Shown here piece by piece: positions 21,001 through 30,000 of a DNA stretch of 64,000 nucleotides (positions within the stretch are counted from its first letter, which is position 1; every line of letters begins with the position of its first letter). The DNA comes from an uncultured Gemmatimonadaceae bacterium. Lineage in GTDB: Bacteria > Gemmatimonadota > Gemmatimonadetes > Gemmatimonadales > Gemmatimonadaceae. The stretch is from the NCBI GenBank assembly GCA_963790305.1, contig CAWBOC010000006.1, positions 128,001 to 192,000 of the forward strand, written 5' to 3'. Made by a program: the position numbers.

Positions 21001-24000
21001 TGGTGGATTATCCGCGAGAGCTGTCGCCGCTTGCCAAGCCCAAGCGCGGCGATCCGGCGCTCACCGAGCGGTTCGAGCTGTTCGCACGCGGAAAGGAGCT
21101 GGCGAACGCGTTCAGTGAGCTGAACGACCCGATCGACCAGCGACGGCGGTTCGAGGCGCAAGCGCGCTTGCGGGCCGCGGGGGACGAGGAGGCCTCGGAG
21201 GTGGACGAGGACTATCTCCGCGCGATGGAATACGGCATGCCACCAATGGGAGGGGTGGGGATCGGCCTCGACCGGCTGTTCATGTACCTCACCGGCACGG
21301 CGAACATTCGCGATGTGATTCTTTTTCCGACAATGCGGCCTGAATGACGCGCCTCGAGCTGTCCATCGCGTGGCGGTATCTCGGAGCCGGCGCGATTCGA
21401 AGCTGTTCTCGCTGATCAGCGTCATCGCGATCGGCGGCGTGATCGTCGGGCGTCAGCGCACTGATCGTCATCATCGGCGTCATGAACGGGCTCCAGAACG
21501 ATCTTCGCGAGAAGATTCTCGTCGGCAGCCCCGACATTCGCGTCCTGCCGTTCGGTGATGACATGACGATGGTCGACTGGCAAGCGACCCTCGAAACCGT
21601 CCGCAAGCAGCCCGGCGTCGTCGCCGCGGCGCCATTCATACACACCCAGGCCGTCGCCAGCGCCGGCCACCGCTACGCCGAAGGCGTGATGGTGGTGGGC
21701 ATCCAGCCAGAGTCGCGCACCGCGCAGAAGGTGACCACGATCCGGCAGACCGCGCTGCACGGGGACTTCCGTTTCGCTAGCGCGGACGGGAAGCAGACGA
21801 GGCGTCGTGCTTAGGCCGACGCGTCGCCGATCGGTTCGGCGTCTTTCCCGGTGACAAGATCAACCTCATCGGCTTCGGCGGAACGAAGATCAACGCGGCC
21901 ACCGGCGCCGTCATCCCTCAACTTCAGCAATTCGAGGTCACCGGAATCTTCGAGACGGGGATGTACGAGTACGACAATCAGTACGTGTACATGGCTCTTC
22001 CCGTCGCGCAGGAGTTCGCGGGCCTGGGAACGGCGGTCACGGGCATTGAAGCGCGCACGCCCACGCGCTGGGAGGCGCCGGAAACGGCCGAGCGCCTAGC
22101 CAATGCGCTCTCGCATCATCGCGTGCTGGACTGGCAGGAGCAGAACTGCGTCGCTCTTTCAAGCGCTGAAGCTCGAGAAGCTCGGGATGGGGATCATCCT
22201 GCTGCTGATCGTAGTCGTCGCCGCGTTCAATATCGTGAGTACGCTGACGATGGTCGTGGCGGACAAGACGCGGGAGATCGGCATCCTGAAGGCCATGGGC
22301 ATGACGGCGCGATCGATCCGCAACATTTTCTTCACGCAGGGTGTCGTAATCGGAATCGTTGGAACGGGACTGGGGCTCATGCTTGGAATCGCTGGGGCGC
22401 TGGCGCTCGGGAAGTACAAGCTGATTCGCCTTGATCCCGGCGGTATATTTCATCGATCACCTTCCCGTAGCGCTGGAACCCCTGGACGTTGCCTGGATCG
22501 TCCTGGCAAGTCTCGCGATTGCGGCGGTGGCGACGGTGCACCCGGCGATGCAGGCGGCGAAGCTGTATCCCGTCGACGCAATTCGACACGAATGATGGTC
22601 ATCGAGGCGCGCGATCTGGCGAAGTCGTATCGCGGAGGCGACGGCGGGCTCATCCATGTGCTCGACGGCGTCGATCTCGCCGTGCGGCGAGGTGAGATGG
22701 TGGCGATCGTCGGCGCGAGCGGCGCGGGCAAGAGCACACTCCTCCACGTTCTTGGCGCGCTCGATCGGCCGACCCGCGGATCGGTGCTGCTCGACGGTGA
22801 GCCACTGCACGGCCGGCCGGATGACGAGCTGGCCGAAGATTCGCAACCGGAAGATCGGCTTCGTCTTTCAGTTCCATCACCTGCTGCGGGAGTTCTCCGC
22901 CCTCGAGAACGTCATGATGCCGCTCCGGATCGCCGGCTTCGACGTCCGACATGCGCCGATCGCGCGCCGAGGAGCTGCTGGCGCGGGTTGGCCTGAGCGG
23001 ACGCATGACTCATCGCCCGGGCGAGCTCTCCGGCGGCGAGCAGCAGCGCACCGCGGTCGCCCGCGCCCTCGCCATCGATCCGGCCGTGCTCCTGGCCGAT
23101 GAGCCCTCCGGGAACCTCGATCATACCAACAGCGAGCGCCTGCACGAGCTCTTCTCGCAGCTGGCCAGTGACCTCGAGATCGCGATGGTGGTCGTCACTC
23201 ACAACCGGGCGCTCGCGAGCCGTGCCGACCGAGCGTTGCTGCTGGAAGATGGCCGGCTGCGGGATACGGACGTCAAAGAGGTGGTGACCTGATGTTGTGC
23301 GATGTCTGCGGCGAGCGGGATGCGGTCGTCAAGGTGACCCAGGTGGGTGAACACGGCAAAACGCTCGTGCAGATGTGCGAGCGTTGCGCCGCTGATCGCA
23401 ACATTGAGACGACCGTCAGCCTGTCGAAGAACCCGCTTGGCGAGTTCCTGCTCGACCTGCAGAAGGAGACCTCACCGTCCACCGGGCGACACGGCACGCT
23501 GCAACTTCTGCAACGCCACGCTGCGCGACTTTCGCGCGACTGGGCGACTGGGCTGCGCGCGCTGCTATACGGCGTTCGAGCCGAGCTTGCGCGACCTGCT
23601 CCGCCGCGTGCACGGCAGCTCGAAGCACCTCGGCCGCGCGATATGAGTCGCCCGAGATCGCAATGACCGACGAGCAAACCGAGCTTCACGAGCTTCGCGA
23701 GCGGCTGCGTCGTGCCATCGAGGCCGAGCAATTCGAGCTCGCCGCGGAGCTGCGCGACCGCATCAAGGTGATGGGGGGAGTATGATCGATCTTTCCCTCC
23801 TTCCGGACAGCGGCGTCAGCTGGCTCGACGCGTCGGGACAGCACGCGGACATCGTCCTTTCGACGCGAATTCGCCTAGCGAGGAACGTGGAAGGGTTCGC
23901 GTTCGGGGCACGCGCCCGGGATGGCGAGCGGCTGCGGATCCTGACGCATGTAAAGGACGCGATTCACGCATCCTCCGGGCTGCACCAGGCCGTACTGGTT

Positions 24001-27000: not shown

Positions 27001-30000
27001 AGAAGGTGAAGGAGGAAATCGGGCGGGTGTTCAACCCGGAGTTCCTGAACCGTCTCGATGAAGTCATCGTGTTCCACCCGCTGTCGCAGACGCATATCCG
27101 GCAGATCGTCTCCATCCTGATCCGGGACGTGCAGAAGCGCCTCGCGGAGGAGGAGATCACGCTCAAGCTCACCGACCCGGCCAGCGATTTCCTCGCGAAG
27201 CAGGGGTATGACGAGAACTTTGGTGCCCGACCGCTAAAGCGCGCCATCCAGCGCTTCGTCGAGGATCCGTTGTCGGAGAAGATCCTGACCGGCGAGTTCA
27301 GCCGGGGCGATGAGGTGGAGCTCGACGTTGCCGCCGACGGCACGAAGCTCGACTTCCGGGTGCTCGCCAAGACGACCACCTAACTCCGCGAACCCGCGGC
27401 ACATCGCGGGGTATCACGGCCGGTCTGCCCTAGTGGGCAGGCCGGCCGTTTCGTGTCTATATTACGGGTCTATGGCACGTCTTTCCCTTCTAGCTGTCGT
27501 CGCGCTGGCAGGCACGCCTCTCCTTGCGCAGGAGGAGGGTGCCACACCCGGGCGGTGCGCGGCCCCTGATAGCATTGGTGTTCGCGGCAACCAGCGGGTC
27601 GGCGAGGCAACCATCCGCGCCGACGCGCAGCTCACCGCTGGCCAGCCCCTCAACTTTCGAGGGGTTCAGCGGGCGATTCGCAGCCTGTTCGCGACGGGCC
27701 AGTTCACCGACGTCCGACTGCTCTGCGATGTCGCCGCCAACGGCCGTTCGACACTCGTGATCGAGGTTGCTGAGCGTCCTCTACTTGGTTCGCTTGCCAT
27801 TACCGGCGTGGAGAAGGTGCCGGAGCGGACGGTGCGCGAGAAAGTCGACCTTCTGGTGAACCGGGCCCTCGACCCGAATCAGCTCGCCCGGGCCATGCAG
27901 CGCATCGACTCGGTCTACGAGAACGCGGGCTATTATCTCGCCGAGGTCACGGCGGATACGCAGACCGTGGATGGCAAGGTGAACCTGACCCTCCGGATCG
28001 ACGAAGGGCGTCGGCTCGCGATCTCGGGAATTCGCGTCAACGGCAACTCCGTCATCTCCGACGAGGAAATCGTCGGAGAAATGAAGACGAAGCCCGAGGG
28101 ATTCTGGTGGTTCCGGCGGGGCGAATTCAACGAAGACGAGTACGCCAGCGATCTCGGTGAACGCATCGCGGGGCTCTATGCGAAACGCGGCTTCATCGAC
28201 TTCCAGATCATCAAGGATTCGCTCGTCGTCGACCGTGAGCGTGGCAAGGCGCTGCTGGACATCACGGTCAACGAGGGAAAGCAGTACCGCATAGGCTCGT
28301 TCGAGGTCGTGGGCAACCGCCGCTTCTCGAGTGACGAGATCGAGCGGTTCTATCCCTTCGGCGACGTCTCGCCGACGCTGACCCAGCGGATGCGTGACCT
28401 GCTGACTCGGGGGTCGCGCGACGCGGCAAACGTGTTCGATCAGGCGCAGTGGGAAGACGCCACGGGCAAGCTGCGTACGGCGTACAGCAACGAGGGCTAC
28501 ATCTACGCCCAGGTGCGCCCGGTCATCGATCGCGTTGGAACGACCGGCGATTCCACCCCGGTGGTGAATCTGCGCTGGGAAATCGACGAGCGCTCGCCGG
28601 CGATCGTGAATCGCGTCGACATCGTGGGCAACGACTACACGACCGAAGCATGCATTCGTGATGCGCTGCTGATCCTTCCCGGTGATGTCTTCAACCAGGA
28701 CCGGCTGGTTCGCAGCTATCAGAACATCGCCAACCTCGGCTTCTTCGAAACGCCGCTGCCGACACCCGACACCCGGCCAGCGGGCGAGGAAGGCGACGTC
28801 GACATTGTTTTCGGAGTGAAGGAGAAACGCACGGGGAGCGTCAACTTCGGTGCGTCGGTGGGCGAGGGGACCGGAGTCGGCGGATTTCTTGGGCTGGACC
28901 AGCCCAATCTCTTCGGCCAGTGCAAGCGGGCGTCCCTTCAGTGGCAGTTCGGTGCCAACCAGAAGGAGTTCTCGCTCAGCTTTACCGACCCCGCGATTCA
29001 GCGTTCGCGCATCTCGGGAACGGTGAGCGTCTACCATCGGCGGCTCCGCTACATCGTCGAGGATTACGGGCGCTCGGTGCTCTCCGGTGGATCGCTGCAG
29101 TTCGGGTTTCCGGTGCCACGGTCGCCGTTCACGCGAATCTTCCTTTCGTATGGCGGTGAGCGGGTCGAGCAGCGCGGAGGCATCTTCGACCGCGACACGA
29201 CGATCCTGACGTCGGGCGAGGGATTCCGGTCGAGCCTGGGCGTGTCCGCCCAGCGCGATACCCGCATTGGCTTGCCGTTCGCCACCGCGGGCTCGCTCCA
29301 GACGTTCGCCGCCAGCTTCAACGGGGGACCGTTAGGCGGCAACACGGCGTTCCAGCGGTACACGACCGAGCTCAAGGCGTACGCCCCGCTGTGGACCGTC
29401 GGGGGCGAGCGGCCGGGCAGTCAGCCGCTTCAGTTCACGCTCGGTCTTTCTACACGCGCTGGTGCGGTCTTCGGGGATGTCGGAGCCTTCATCGTGTCCC
29501 AGAAGTTCGGCCTTGGCGGCGTCATGTTCGGCGAGCCGCTGCGTGGCTACAAGGAGTTCTCGATCACGCCGAACGGGTTCGATCCTACCGAGCAGCAGAC
29601 GCGGGCCTCCTTCGGAGACGCCTTTTTCTCGACAACGGCCGAGCTCGGTCTCCGTCTGAACTCGCAGGTGTATTTGAACATGTTCTTCGACGCGGGCAAC
29701 ATTTGGAATAACCCGCGGGAGTTCGACCCCACGCGCCTGTTCCGTGGCGCGGGTGTCGGTGTATCACTGATAACGCCGCTGGGGCCCCTCGGTCTGGACT
29801 GGGCCTACGGCTTCGATCGGACGGATGCCTTCGGCCGTCCGGATCCCAAGTGGGAGCTCCATTTCCGGCTCGGCAATCTCTACTGACGGAGTGATCATGG
29901 CAGGCATGGCTCGCGCGGGCGCGGTGGCGCTCGGACTCCTGGTCTTCGGTACGGCCGCTGCGGCGGCTCAGACACCGGTGAAGATCGGGTACATCAAATC

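What a model noticed while it worked through the whole genome (the two positions that open the first line are those of the whole stretch)
23292..27383. Firmicute-type protein-arginine kinase module McsA-McsB-ClpC in a diderm phylum
Between lolD and bamA lie a UVR-motif gene (g01716), a phosphagen-kinase-fold gene 45% identical to protein-arginine kinase McsB (g01718, broken by assembly frameshifts) and a ClpC-type unfoldase with double Clp_N (g01719/g01720). Boldest reading: Gemmatimonadota mark proteins for ClpC-ClpP degradation by arginine phosphorylation as Bacillus does, so the pArg degron is not a Gram-positive speciality. New would be a phylum-wide pArg pathway in outer-membrane-bearing bacteria, without the CtsR repressor.
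Evidence so far: Tables: g01716 UVR; g01718 ATP-gua_Ptrans, best hit protein-arginine kinase of Pelotomaculum 44.6%; g01719 Clp_N x2, best hit ClpC/MecB of Bacillus 57%. PF00217 search: one match over the Pfam cut-off in 39 of 41 Gemmatimonadota genomes (open frames 313-540 aa); among 14 control genomes only Bacillus subtilis. LMW phosphatase g01834 and ClpP g00424 present. Papers: 'McsB'+'Gemmatimonad' 1 paper with one passing mention of each (listing only, call 91).
(Added by a program. Inside this text positions count along the whole contig: contig position 128,001 is position 1 of the stretch shown here. "Call 12" and the like, gene names such as g00115 and contig names such as C1 are that model's own, and its searches are not shown. 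The text may have been shortened before it was handed on; [...] marks where a part breaks off. The agent that wrote the report below was given it as the finding of a first reader that could run no searches.)

Follow-up and report, generated by a model that had tools for sequence, protein, structure and literature searches.

The report
Phospho-arginine protein-degradation genes in Gemmatimonadota
This soil bacterium with an outer membrane carries the full gene set for tagging proteins on arginine with phosphate and then destroying them, a system studied almost only in Gram-positive bacteria; public annotation already names these genes, they are common in several other outer-membrane-bearing phyla, and the part nobody has explained is their fixed place among the genes that build the outer membrane.

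Summary
Window 23292-27383 (+) encodes mcsA, mcsB and clpC. They are broken here by single-base insertions at 23482, 23637, 24231 and about 25376. A same-genus genome lacks the first three, and independent metagenome contigs lack three of them (not 23482, which had little cover), so these are assembly errors. All family-defining residues are kept: eight zinc-binding Cys in McsA, NEEDH and the catalytic Cys in McsB, and the phospho-arginine pocket residues and ClpP-docking loop in ClpC. Elsewhere the genome has ClpP and a YwlE-type phosphatase with the arginine-specific Thr. No CtsR was found.

McsB is near-universal in the phylum (149 of 151 genomes), but also in Planctomycetota (94 of 101) and Eisenbacteria (40 of 41). 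Public records already name the gene "protein arginine kinase". Chlamydia McsAB/ClpC is published. This scan reported the same layout at least eight times on other DNA.

The McsB tree separates Gemmatimonadota from Bacillota, so "Firmicute-type" is misleading. What remains undescribed in the papers searched is the order lysS-lolE-lolD-mcsA-mcsB-clpC-bamA(-skp-lpxD in the seven extended loci), kept across the phylum and, as far as bamA, in at least three other phyla. lolD and mcsA overlap or abut in 60 of 104 loci. Activity and substrates are untested.

The parts
19894..21118 (+). lysS (lysyl-tRNA synthetase), frameshifted in this assembly. It is the first gene of the conserved order lysS-lolE-lolD-mcsA-mcsB-clpC-bamA.
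   Evidence: tRNA-synt_2 and tRNA_anti-codon Pfam matches on two overlapping frames. A LysS match lies upstream of lolE/lolD in most loci whose upstream flank is long enough.
22103..23292 (+). End of lolE (FtsX-like permease) and lolD (ABC ATPase), frameshifted here. The lolD stop overlaps the mcsA start by one base (TGATG).
   Evidence: FtsX and ABC_tran matches. The intact same-genus LolD scores 282.8 bits on TIGR02211 LolD, just under the 307.75 cut-off. The distance from the lolD stop to the mcsA start is 0 or less in 60 of 104 loci and 1-100 nt in 37.
23292..23785 (+). mcsA, the activator of the arginine kinase: two four-Cys zinc domains and a UVR-type coiled coil. Read in three frames here because of extra bases at 23482 and 23637.
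   Evidence: NF053706 McsA is the only NCBIfam match of the first two pieces. The intact same-genus protein (163 aa) aligns end to end with B. subtilis McsA, PDB 8wtb_B, E 4.4e-17, and has a UVR Pfam match. All eight Cys are invariant in 15 of 15 phylum members. Insertions located; 23638 is left out in one contig.
23782..24859 (+). mcsB, protein-arginine kinase: phosphagen-kinase-like catalytic domain plus the McsB C-terminal dimerisation domain. One extra base at 24231 splits it into two frames. Its ATG overlaps the mcsA stop (ATGA).
   Evidence: PF00217 on both pieces. The best NCBIfam models are all McsB. The intact homologue matches B. subtilis McsB over residues 7-352, E 3e-79. NEEDH and the catalytic Cys are invariant. 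Base 24231 is absent from every covering contig of four runs.
24896..27383 (+). clpC, a class I AAA+ unfoldase: double Clp_N N-terminal domain, two AAA+ modules, short M-domain with a UVR motif, and a ClpP-docking LGF loop. One extra base near 25376.
   Evidence: Pfam matches. The N-domain matches ClpC N-domains, including 5hbn, at E about 1e-44 and keeps the equivalents of T7, E32, T81 and E106. The full-length same-genus protein scores 1012 bits against B. subtilis ClpC, with LGF where B. subtilis has VGF. Base 25376 is left out in contigs of three runs.
27310..29886 (+). bamA (outer-membrane protein assembly factor). The true start is probably downstream of 27310, because the ORF overlaps the end of clpC.
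   Evidence: POTRA x4 and Omp85. TIGR03303 BamA scores 415.9 bits against a cut-off of 297, with the match starting at residue 88. It follows clpC in 7 of 7 extended phylum loci and in most loci.
29825..32861 (+). skp (ompH), lpxD and a fused lpxC-fabZ. This is the outer-membrane and lipid A gene string that continues to lpxB and lpxK (to 37445).
   Evidence: OmpH, LpxD/Hexapep and LpxC+FabA Pfam matches. The same order holds in 7 of 7 extended loci.

Best explanation
This is an ordinary, functional McsA-McsB-ClpC phospho-arginine system. It is broken in this assembly only by sequencing errors.

Inferred mechanism, by homology to Bacillus and Geobacillus:
- McsA binds the McsB kinase domain through its second zinc domain and activates it.
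- McsB transfers phosphate from ATP to arginine side chains of misfolded or selected proteins.
- The two pockets of the ClpC N-domain bind the phospho-arginine mark.
- ClpC unfolds the protein and feeds it to ClpP, which is encoded elsewhere in the genome.
- A YwlE-type phosphatase, encoded 108 kb downstream on the same contig, removes the mark.

Differences from the Bacillus model:
- There is no CtsR repressor.
- The genes are read together with the lipoprotein-sorting genes lolE-lolD (overlapping stop and start) and are followed by bamA-skp-lpxD.
- In this order of the phylum, McsB has lost part of its own phospho-arginine receptor site and the Arg194 clamp. The closed-octamer control described for B. 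subtilis therefore probably does not apply.

Shown: gene identity, conserved residues, gene order and distribution. Inferred: kinase activity, degradation, co-transcription and substrates.
For: - Full-length homology to solved McsB (E 3e-79), McsA (E 4.4e-17) and ClpC (1012 bits).
- The NEEDH motif, the catalytic Cys in SCPTN and the YGEGSE segment are invariant in 15 of 15 phylum McsB sequences. These are the active-site features named in PMC11046695.
- There is no phosphagen-kinase N-domain. McsB_C (PF27454) is on all 120 listed close homologues.
- The eight zinc-binding Cys of McsA and its UVR coiled coil are invariant in 15 of 15.
- The ClpC N-domain equivalents of T7, E32, T81 and E106 read TETE in 105 of 106 loci. 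E32 and E106 are the crucial phospho-arginine determinants (PMC12583610, passages).
- ClpC carries an LGF ClpP-docking loop, and the genome has a ClpP locus.
- The single LMW phosphatase has the P-loop CTGNTCRS and its best PDB matches are YwlE. Thr at P-loop position 5 is the arginine-phosphatase determinant (PMC7772506, passages).
- McsB matches in 149 of 151 phylum genomes, 81 of 82 genera.
- The order lolD-mcsA-mcsB holds in 42 of 42 loci, with clpC next in 41 of 42 (one is cut by a contig end).
- The frameshifts are absent from a same-genus genome and from independent contigs.
Against: - There is no biochemical or proteomic data for any member of this phylum.
- In this order, scores fall below NCBI's equivalog cut-offs: McsB 364 against 385, McsA 105.5 against 210. 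None of 31 near relatives is over the cut-off, and 28 of 151 in the phylum are.
- Three of the four receptor-site residues of B. subtilis McsB are changed here: R337 to A, D338 to N, S285 to F. Only R341 is kept. R194 is K (residue roles from PMC8370763).
- The YwlE-type Thr is not universal in the phylum: Thr in 18, Ser in 2 and Ile in 10 of 30 loci.
- The ClpC pocket residues are also kept in mycobacterial ClpC1 (seen among the PDB matches). I recall that mycobacteria lack McsB, so these residues alone do not prove a kinase-dependent pathway.
- Two of the five McsB residues in loop lambda-1 that contact McsA differ: H38 to G and T43 to A.
Confidence: 0.8

Rival explanations
1. The module is tied to outer-membrane biogenesis. 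It is co-expressed with LolCDE and BamA-Skp-Lpx because it removes or regulates cytoplasmic forms of envelope proteins, for example unexported lipoprotein or OMP precursors, or a lipid A enzyme. This extends the best explanation and does not replace it.
For: - The order lysS-lolE-lolD-mcsA-mcsB-clpC-bamA holds across the phylum and in Binatia, Eisenbacteria and five unclassified lineages; the Ignavibacteria locus has it as far as clpC, with no bamA match in the flank held.
- clpC-bamA-skp-lpxD-lpxC/fabZ holds in 7 of 7 extended loci.
- The lolD stop and the mcsA start overlap or abut in 60 of 104 loci and lie within 100 nt in 97 of 104.
- This order persists although McsB identity falls to 45-50% between phyla.
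Against: - Conserved order can be inherited without a shared function.
- Planctomycetota keep mcsA-mcsB apart from clpC and from lol genes in 10 of 12 loci. Chlamydia does the same (PMC10128030).
- Bacillota run the same module without any outer membrane.
- No substrate is known.
- Contigs from RNA libraries bridge mcsB and clpC only, and such contigs cannot prove a transcript.
Confidence: 0.2
2. The genes are real pseudogenes in this organism, meaning the frameshifts exist in the DNA.
For: Four single-base insertions break all three genes in the window.
Against: - Neighbouring housekeeping genes (lysS, lolE/lolD, lpxB) are frameshifted too, which points to assembly errors.
- A 96%-identical genome has intact frames.
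- Every covering contig of up to four runs lacks the extra base at 24231 and at 25376.
- No other damage is seen.
- Limit: the contigs come from relatives 90-99% alike, not from the source sample itself.
Confidence: 0.05
3. The kinase is a true phosphagen (free arginine) kinase used for energy buffering.
For: PF00217 is shared with arginine and creatine kinases. Arginine kinases appear in the PDB list at E 1e-22 to 1e-24.
Against: - There is no N-terminal phosphagen-kinase domain.
- The McsB-specific C-terminal domain is present.
- McsB structures score about 55 orders of magnitude better than the single-domain arginine kinases (E about 1e-24); two tandem two-domain kinases, taurocyamine kinase 4wo8 (7e-56) and arginine kinase 4rf6 (4e-43), come closer.
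- All five NCBIfam matches are McsB models.
- The gene is translationally coupled to mcsA. McsA structurally stands in for the missing N-domain but lacks the small-substrate specificity loop (PMC11046695).
Confidence: 0.03
4. The module was recently imported from Firmicutes (a 'Firmicute-type' island).
For: The system was discovered in Bacillota and is best known there. Identity to Bacillota McsB is about 43%.
Against: - It is near-universal in the phylum, with phylum-wide conserved neighbours.
- In the tree, Gemmatimonadota (100/99) and Bacillota (98/92) are each one side of a branch, and the nearest groups are other diderm phyla.
- G+C content is flat across the region.
- Bacillota loci have ctsR upstream and radA downstream, with no lol or bamA.
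- Limit: the tree is unrooted and holds only five Bacillota rows.
Confidence: 0.04
5. McsB works here mainly as a ClpC adaptor or activator, or ClpC works mainly as a ClpP-independent disaggregase, so that arginine phosphorylation is not chiefly a degradation tag.
For: - Part of the receptor site in the dimerisation domain is lost.
- A preprint abstract reports a chaperone mode of ClpC/McsB/McsA/YwlE in B. subtilis (10.1101/2022.09.15.508104, abstract in the listing only).
Against: The catalytic residues are intact and invariant here. The ClpP-docking loop and ClpP are present. The phospho-arginine pockets are kept.
Confidence: 0.1

Closest known systems
Bacillus subtilis / Geobacillus stearothermophilus class III heat-shock operon ctsR-mcsA-mcsB-clpC (McsAB kinase, ClpCP protease, YwlE phosphatase)
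   Same: The same three adjacent genes in the same order. Same domain plans, active-site motifs, McsA zinc domains, ClpC phospho-arginine pockets and ClpP loop. A YwlE-type phosphatase with Thr at P-loop position 5.
   Different: No CtsR and no CtsR box. The upstream neighbour is lolD, not ctsR, and the downstream neighbour is bamA, not radA (compare). R194 and three of the four receptor-site residues are changed in this order. Scores lie below NCBI's equivalog cut-offs.
Chlamydia trachomatis McsA/McsB (CT676/CT675) with ClpC-ClpP1P2
   Same: A diderm bacterium with McsAB and ClpC. The papers read name no CtsR. Its ClpC needs arginine-phosphorylated casein for degradation in vitro (PMC10128030, passages).
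   Different: In Chlamydia mcsAB lies apart from clpC and is flanked by tRNA genes, which its authors read as possible horizontal acquisition. Here the three genes are adjacent, joined to lolD, and core to a free-living phylum.
The lolE-lolD-mcsA-mcsB-clpC-bamA layout in other diderm phyla (Eisenbacteria, Binatia, Ignavibacteria, Omnitrophota)
   Same: The same gene order, in most loci from lysS onward. No CtsR was found in 5 of 5 such genomes.
   Different: In Omnitrophota about 0.9 kb separates lolD from mcsA, and bamA was not found in the flank held for the Ignavibacteria and Omnitrophota loci. I found no paper on this layout. It is known to me only from this scan's own earlier notes.
Phosphagen kinases (arginine kinase, creatine kinase)
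   Same: The catalytic domain fold and the NEEDH and Cys motifs (PF00217).
   Different: They carry an N-terminal specificity domain, act on small guanidino compounds, and lack the McsB C-domain and a McsA partner.

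Membership tests
McsB protein-arginine kinase | Phosphagen-kinase-like catalytic domain with the NEEDH motif and the catalytic Cys (B. subtilis C167) | tested here: met
   PF00217 at E 1.4e-58. NEEDH and SCPTN align with B. subtilis McsB. They are invariant in 15 of 15, with G for the N of NEEDH in 3.
McsB protein-arginine kinase | No phosphagen-kinase N-terminal domain, and a C-terminal dimerisation domain (McsB_C, PF27454) instead | tested here: met
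   Only PF00217 matched in the local Pfam copy. PF27454 is precomputed on all 120 listed homologues, including one 96% identical, and is named McsB_C. The alignment to solved McsB runs to residue 352 of 358.
McsB protein-arginine kinase | Phospho-arginine receptor site in the dimerisation domain (B. subtilis R337, D338, R341, S285) and the R194 clamp | tested here: not met
   Here the residues read A, N, R and F, and R194 is K. The R-D..R pattern is kept in 5 of 15 phylum sequences, four from the other classes and one (L034) from the window's own class. This is a regulatory feature, not a catalytic one.
McsB protein-arginine kinase | Score over NCBIfam's equivalog cut-off | tested here: not met
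   364.3 bits against 385 for NF002194, and 345 against 500 for NF053707. 28 of 151 phylum genomes pass. NCBI records nevertheless name the close homologues 'protein arginine kinase'.
McsB protein-arginine kinase | Phosphorylates arginine residues of proteins | not testable with these tools
McsA activator | Two four-Cys zinc domains, with the second followed by the loop that binds McsB, then a UVR-type coiled coil | tested here: met
   End-to-end alignment with 8wtb_B. The eight Cys, the GR-x-GC..CY..F motif and the ..H.G.. motif are conserved, and the UVR residues are invariant. The NCBIfam score is below the cut-off, 105.5 against 210.
ClpC unfoldase (pArg-reading type) | Double Clp_N N-domain with the two phospho-arginine pockets (T7, E32, T81, E106) | tested here: met
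   (TETE in 105 of 106 loci). Residue roles come from PMC12583610.
ClpC unfoldase (pArg-reading type) | Two AAA+ modules, a short M-domain, and a ClpP-docking tripeptide | tested here: met
   Pfam matches. 828 aa aligned over residues 5-815 with B. subtilis ClpC, with LGF at the VGF position.
YwlE-type protein-arginine phosphatase | LMW-PTP fold with Thr at P-loop position 5 | tested here: met
   CTGNTCRS in the own genome, with YwlE as the best PDB matches. Across the phylum, 18 Thr, 2 Ser and 10 Ile of 30.
CtsR (class III heat-shock) regulon | CtsR repressor gene and its heptad-repeat operator upstream of the operon | tested here: not met
   PF05848 gave 0 matches in the own genome, while the controls B. 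subtilis and L. lactis ring. One chance-level operator-like site lies 11 kb away. A Bacillota-like locus scanned in the same way shows CtsR directly upstream of mcsA.

The most novel reading that the evidence does not exclude
The phospho-arginine/ClpC module is an old, vertically kept part of the envelope-biogenesis gene string of many diderm phyla (lysS-lolCDE-mcsAB-clpC-bamA-skp-lpxD). It acts as the cytoplasmic quality-control or regulatory arm of outer-membrane assembly, for example by clearing lipoprotein or OMP precursors that fail export, or by setting the level of a lipid A enzyme. The Bacillota ctsR operon would then be a stress-regulated derivative of this module, not its prototype.
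Probability: 0.15. Interest if true: 0.75.

Novelty: new member of a known kind. Interest (0 to 1): 0.4.

Why it matters
Arginine phosphorylation as a degradation tag is still taught, and introduced in recent papers, as a Gram-positive trait. The genomic data here show the full kit as a core feature of at least three outer-membrane-bearing phyla. That makes the question testable in cultured Gemmatimonas or planctomycetes.

The practical value of this window itself is small. The genes are already named in public records, and this scan has seen the layout before.

What could repay bench work is the fixed position between the lipoprotein-sorting and BamA/lipid A genes. If that position reflects function, it would link cytoplasmic proteolysis to outer-membrane assembly in a way not described for the model Proteobacteria.

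Tried and rejected
- A CtsR operator consensus and a CIRCE consensus (both recalled from memory) were searched in the window. The first gave one chance-level site at 12220 with 3 mismatches (51 of 100 shuffles do as well). The second gave none.
- The promoter and terminator scan of 18500-31000 was at or below the shuffle expectation and gave nothing usable. How the genes are regulated without CtsR stays open.
- I recalled that lysS lies near ctsR-mcsA-mcsB-clpC in B. subtilis and wondered whether lysS..mcsAB-clpC is an ancestral order shared with Bacillota. In 7 Bacillota-like metagenome loci (68-97% identical to a McsB named for a Bacillota bacterium) no LysS match lies within about 8.4 kb upstream, and L166 shows MFS, a methyltransferase and ctsR there instead. 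The idea was dropped. A paper search for ctsR+lysS+mcsA gave one unrelated paper (listing only).
- RNA-library contigs (runs X15, X16) cover mcsB and clpC and bridge their junction. The tool warns that such contigs show neither transcription nor a single transcript, so I do not count them.
- The part of mcsA around 23464-23651 had next to no cover in the laid runs, so the insertion at 23482 is supported only by the comparison with the same-genus genome.
- In one search my third mcsA piece (23665-23787) was in the wrong frame; the right frame starts at 23663. Its empty result means nothing.
- The Suskiewicz 2019 McsB structure paper (PMC6522372) is not held. Receptor-site residues were taken from PMC8370763 instead.
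- SI Fig. S1A of PMC11046695, which shows the taxonomic spread its authors saw, was not read and may already list more Gram-negative groups.
- Structure prediction, fold search and complex prediction were not run. Full-length sequence matches to solved structures made them unnecessary, and McsA-McsB is a textbook pair.

Full report
**What is in the window**

On the + strand between an FtsX-type permease plus ABC ATPase (lolE/lolD, ending at 23292) and bamA (ORF from 27310) lie three genes.
- mcsA, 23292-23785, is readable only in three frames.
- mcsB, 23782-24859, is split into ORFs 23782-24573 and 24146-24859. Both match PF00217.
- clpC, 24896-27383, is split into ORFs 24896-25567 (two Clp_N repeats) and 25299-27383 (AAA, AAA_lid_9, AAA_2, ClpB_D2-small and a UVR motif in the middle domain).

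NCBIfam's McsA model is the only match of the first two mcsA pieces. Its five McsB models are the only matches of the mcsB pieces. In that call my third mcsA piece was in the wrong frame.

**The breaks are assembly errors**

A same-genus genome (G008, locus L012) is 96% identical in DNA and has all genes intact: LolD 232 aa, McsA 163 aa, McsB 358 aa, and ClpC 828 aa once extended. Against it the window carries single extra bases at 23482, 23637 and 24231.

I laid contigs of four public runs from at least three studies on the region.
- Every contig covering 24231 lacks that base (1, 2, 2 and 2 contigs).
- Contigs of three runs lack a base at 25376, the clpC break (4, 3 and 2 contigs).
- One contig lacks 23638.
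- Site 23482 had almost no cover.

These contigs come from relatives 90-99% alike, not from the source sample. Other genes of the window (lysS, lolE/lolD, lpxB) are split in the same way.

**Are these really McsA, McsB and ClpC?**

McsB:
- The intact protein aligns over residues 7-352 with B. subtilis McsB (8wtb, 6tv6; E 3e-79) and with the Geobacillus enzyme (6fh1; 2e-74). Single-domain arginine kinases score only about 1e-24; the nearest phosphagen kinases, two tandem two-domain enzymes, score 7e-56 and 4e-43.
- It has no phosphagen-kinase N-domain.
- Its close homologues carry Pfam's McsB_C domain.
- In an alignment of 15 McsB sequences spanning the phylum, the EEDH of NEEDH, the Cys-Pro-Thr-Asn of the catalytic loop and the YGEGS segment are invariant. 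PMC11046695 names the catalytic C167 and the NEEDH motif as the catalytic site.

McsA:
- It aligns end to end with B. subtilis McsA (8wtb_B, E 4.4e-17).
- All eight zinc-binding Cys, the GR-x-GC..CY..F segment of the second zinc domain, the following ..H.G.. loop and the UVR-type coiled coil are conserved in 15 of 15.

ClpC:
- It scores 1012 bits against B. subtilis ClpC over its whole length and has LGF where B. subtilis has the ClpP-docking VGF.
- The N-domain equivalents of T7, E32, T81 and E106 are kept in the window. They read T-E-T-E in 105 of 106 loci where a ClpC N-domain follows mcsB, and S-E-T-E in the other.
- E32 and E106 are described as the crucial determinants of the two phospho-arginine pockets (PMC12583610, passages).

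**The rest of the pathway**

The genome (94% complete) has one ClpP locus. It has one LMW phosphatase, at contig position 260044-260460, outside the window. Its P-loop is CTGNTCRS and its best solved relatives are YwlE arginine phosphatases (4pic, E 3.4e-22). Thr at P-loop position 5 is the residue that makes YwlE prefer phospho-arginine; most LMW tyrosine phosphatases have Ile there (PMC7772506, passages). The best homologue of this phosphatase in 30 phylum genomes has Thr in 18, Ser in 2 and Ile in 10, so this part of the kit is not uniform.

CtsR was not found in the own genome. It was also not found in five genomes of other diderm phyla that have McsB. The same Pfam model finds CtsR directly upstream of mcsA in a Bacillota-like locus.

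**Differences from the Bacillus enzyme**

PMC8370763 (passages) describes a phospho-arginine receptor site in the McsB dimerisation domain (R337, D338, R341, S285). It also describes an autophosphorylated R194 that locks a closed octamer. Here these positions read A, N, R, F and K. The R-D..R pattern survives in five of the 15 aligned sequences, four from the other classes and one (L034) from the window's own class, but not in the window's order.

In this order McsB and McsA score below NCBI's equivalog cut-offs: 364 against 385, and 105.5 against 210. None of 31 near relatives passes, while 28 of 151 phylum genomes do.

**Distribution**

- Gemmatimonadota: McsB matches 149 of 151 sampled genomes, 81 of 82 genera. 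Two of these genomes, G079 and G118, are unpublished and both have the match; without them the count is 147 of 149.
- Planctomycetota: 94 of 101 genomes have a match and 69 are over the cut-off.
- Eisenbacteria: 40 of 41. One genome, G291, is unpublished and has a match; without it the count is 39 of 40.
- A scan of species-representative genomes also returned relatives from Binatia, Ignavibacteria and Omnitrophota.
- Names attached to representative clusters add WOR-3, Dependentiae, Latescibacterota and Verrucomicrobiota beside Bacillota. 13 of the 30 representatives looked up had no named member at all, and 5 more bore only the protein name without an organism.
- The family counts 1609 representatives at E of 1e-30 or better in the 50%-identity library.

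**Gene order**

- lolD-mcsA-mcsB is present in 42 of 42 phylum loci, with clpC next in 41 of 42; one locus is cut by a contig end. One locus, L010, is from the unpublished G015.
- Seven loci extended downstream, including other classes of the phylum, all continue clpC-bamA-skp-lpxD-lpxC/fabZ plus a second LpxD-like hexapeptide-transferase match. The window does the same and runs on to lpxB and lpxK.
- The order lolE-lolD-mcsA-mcsB-clpC-bamA (preceded by lysS in all but L112 and L120) recurs in Binatia (L102), Eisenbacteria (L104, L105) and five unclassified bacteria. Ignavibacteria (L108) has it up to clpC, with no bamA in the flank held.
- Omnitrophota have lolD, a gap of about 0.9 kb, then mcsA-mcsB-clpC.
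- Ten of 12 Planctomycetota loci have mcsA-mcsB without clpC or lol beside them.
- The inferred mcsA start overlaps or abuts the lolD stop in 60 of 104 loci, lies 1-100 nt after it in 37, and lies further away in 7. Starts were inferred from alignment; in 7 loci the codon found is not a start codon.
- In the window the overlaps are TGATG (lolD/mcsA) and ATGA (mcsA/mcsB).

**Origin**

I built a maximum-likelihood tree of 37 McsB sequences: 15 Gemmatimonadota, 5 Bacillota and 17 from nine other phyla, chosen by me from 122 loci and 150 representatives.
- Gemmatimonadota fall on one side of a branch (100/99) and Bacillota on one side of another (98/92).
- Gemmatimonadota group with Eisenbacteria/Binatota, Ignavibacteriota, WOR-3 and Latescibacterota (88/89).
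- Bacillota fall on the other side with Planctomycetota, Omnitrophota, Verrucomicrobiota and Dependentiae.
- The tree is unrooted and its Bacillota sampling is thin. It still speaks against a recent import from Firmicutes, as do the phylum-wide conserved neighbours and the flat G+C.

**What is already known**

- NCBI and JGI name the close homologues 'protein arginine kinase [Gemmatimonadaceae bacterium]', and some 'ATP--guanido phosphotransferase'.
- For Chlamydia trachomatis, McsAB orthologues are reported, and ClpCP2P1 degrades arginine-phosphorylated casein but not plain casein (PMC10128030 and PMC11708050, passages).
- PMC11046695 states that McsA/McsB homologues occur in some Gram-negative Proteobacteria and rarely in archaea, with activity never identified (Results parts 1-2 read; its SI figure not seen).
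- Searches for McsB with Gemmatimonad gave one paper with passing mentions, and for McsB with BamA one unrelated paper. Both are listings only.
- A search for McsB, 'protein arginine kinase' and Gram-negative listed 18 papers. By title or abstract none treats these phyla.
- This scan's own earlier notes describe the same lolCD|mcsAB-clpC|bamA layout on eight other genomes, two of them Gemmatimonadota. I reached the layout independently, before reading them.

**Verdict**

The reading 'phospho-arginine tagging is not a Gram-positive speciality' is well supported at the genomic level. It is not new in principle, not specific to this phylum, and already reflected in public annotation.

The undescribed part is the deep conservation of the module's position inside the lipoprotein-sorting and outer-membrane-assembly gene string. 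That may or may not reflect function.

I rate this a new member of a known kind, with interest 0.4.

Noticed in passing
window 19894-21118, 22103-23292, 34121-35598: lysS, lolE/lolD and lpxB are each split over two overlapping frames, like the three genes of the finding. Single-base indel errors look frequent throughout this assembly.
   Followed up: partly
P0124 (535 aa), P0126 (556 aa), P0243 (544 aa), P0246 (531 aa): Some McsB representatives carry an N-terminal extension of about 170-205 residues before the kinase domain. These are possibly McsA-McsB fusion proteins.
   Followed up: no
P0128 (2589 aa), P0171 (1060 aa): Two very long proteins hold three separate stretches that match the kinase domain.
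   Followed up: no
L015:1928-2596 (-), beside the phosphatase at L015:1453-1941 (-); own genome contig 6, outside the window: The YwlE-type phosphatase gene overlaps the end of an ORF that looks by eye like a Sua5/TsaC-family gene (not scanned against Pfam) and is followed by one that looks like aroE. I recall that ywlC (a Sua5 homologue) lies near ywlE in B. subtilis; I did not check this.
   Followed up: no
L140-L146, L148, L152, L155, L156: In 10 of 30 phylum genomes, all from one family of the window's order, the orthologous phosphatase has Ile and not Thr at P-loop position 5 (the tyrosine-phosphatase form), although McsB is present in that family.
   Followed up: partly
G050: One 99%-complete genome of the same class has no McsB match at all, not even a candidate in the first look, yet has three LMW phosphatase matches. 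This may be a real loss.
   Followed up: no
window 31476-32861: lpxC and fabZ form one fused reading frame of 461 aa. The same fusion matches as one stretch in 7 of 7 extended phylum loci.
   Followed up: partly
L197 and L200 (metagenome contigs): Two unnamed metagenome loci, only 42% identical to the Bacillota query, show lysS-lolE-lolD, a gap of about 1.1 kb, then mcsA-mcsB-clpC. These are further diderm lineages with the same layout.
   Followed up: no
window 16852-17841: A GGDEF-domain gene with a weak GlnR-like N-terminal match lies upstream of prfB.
   Followed up: no
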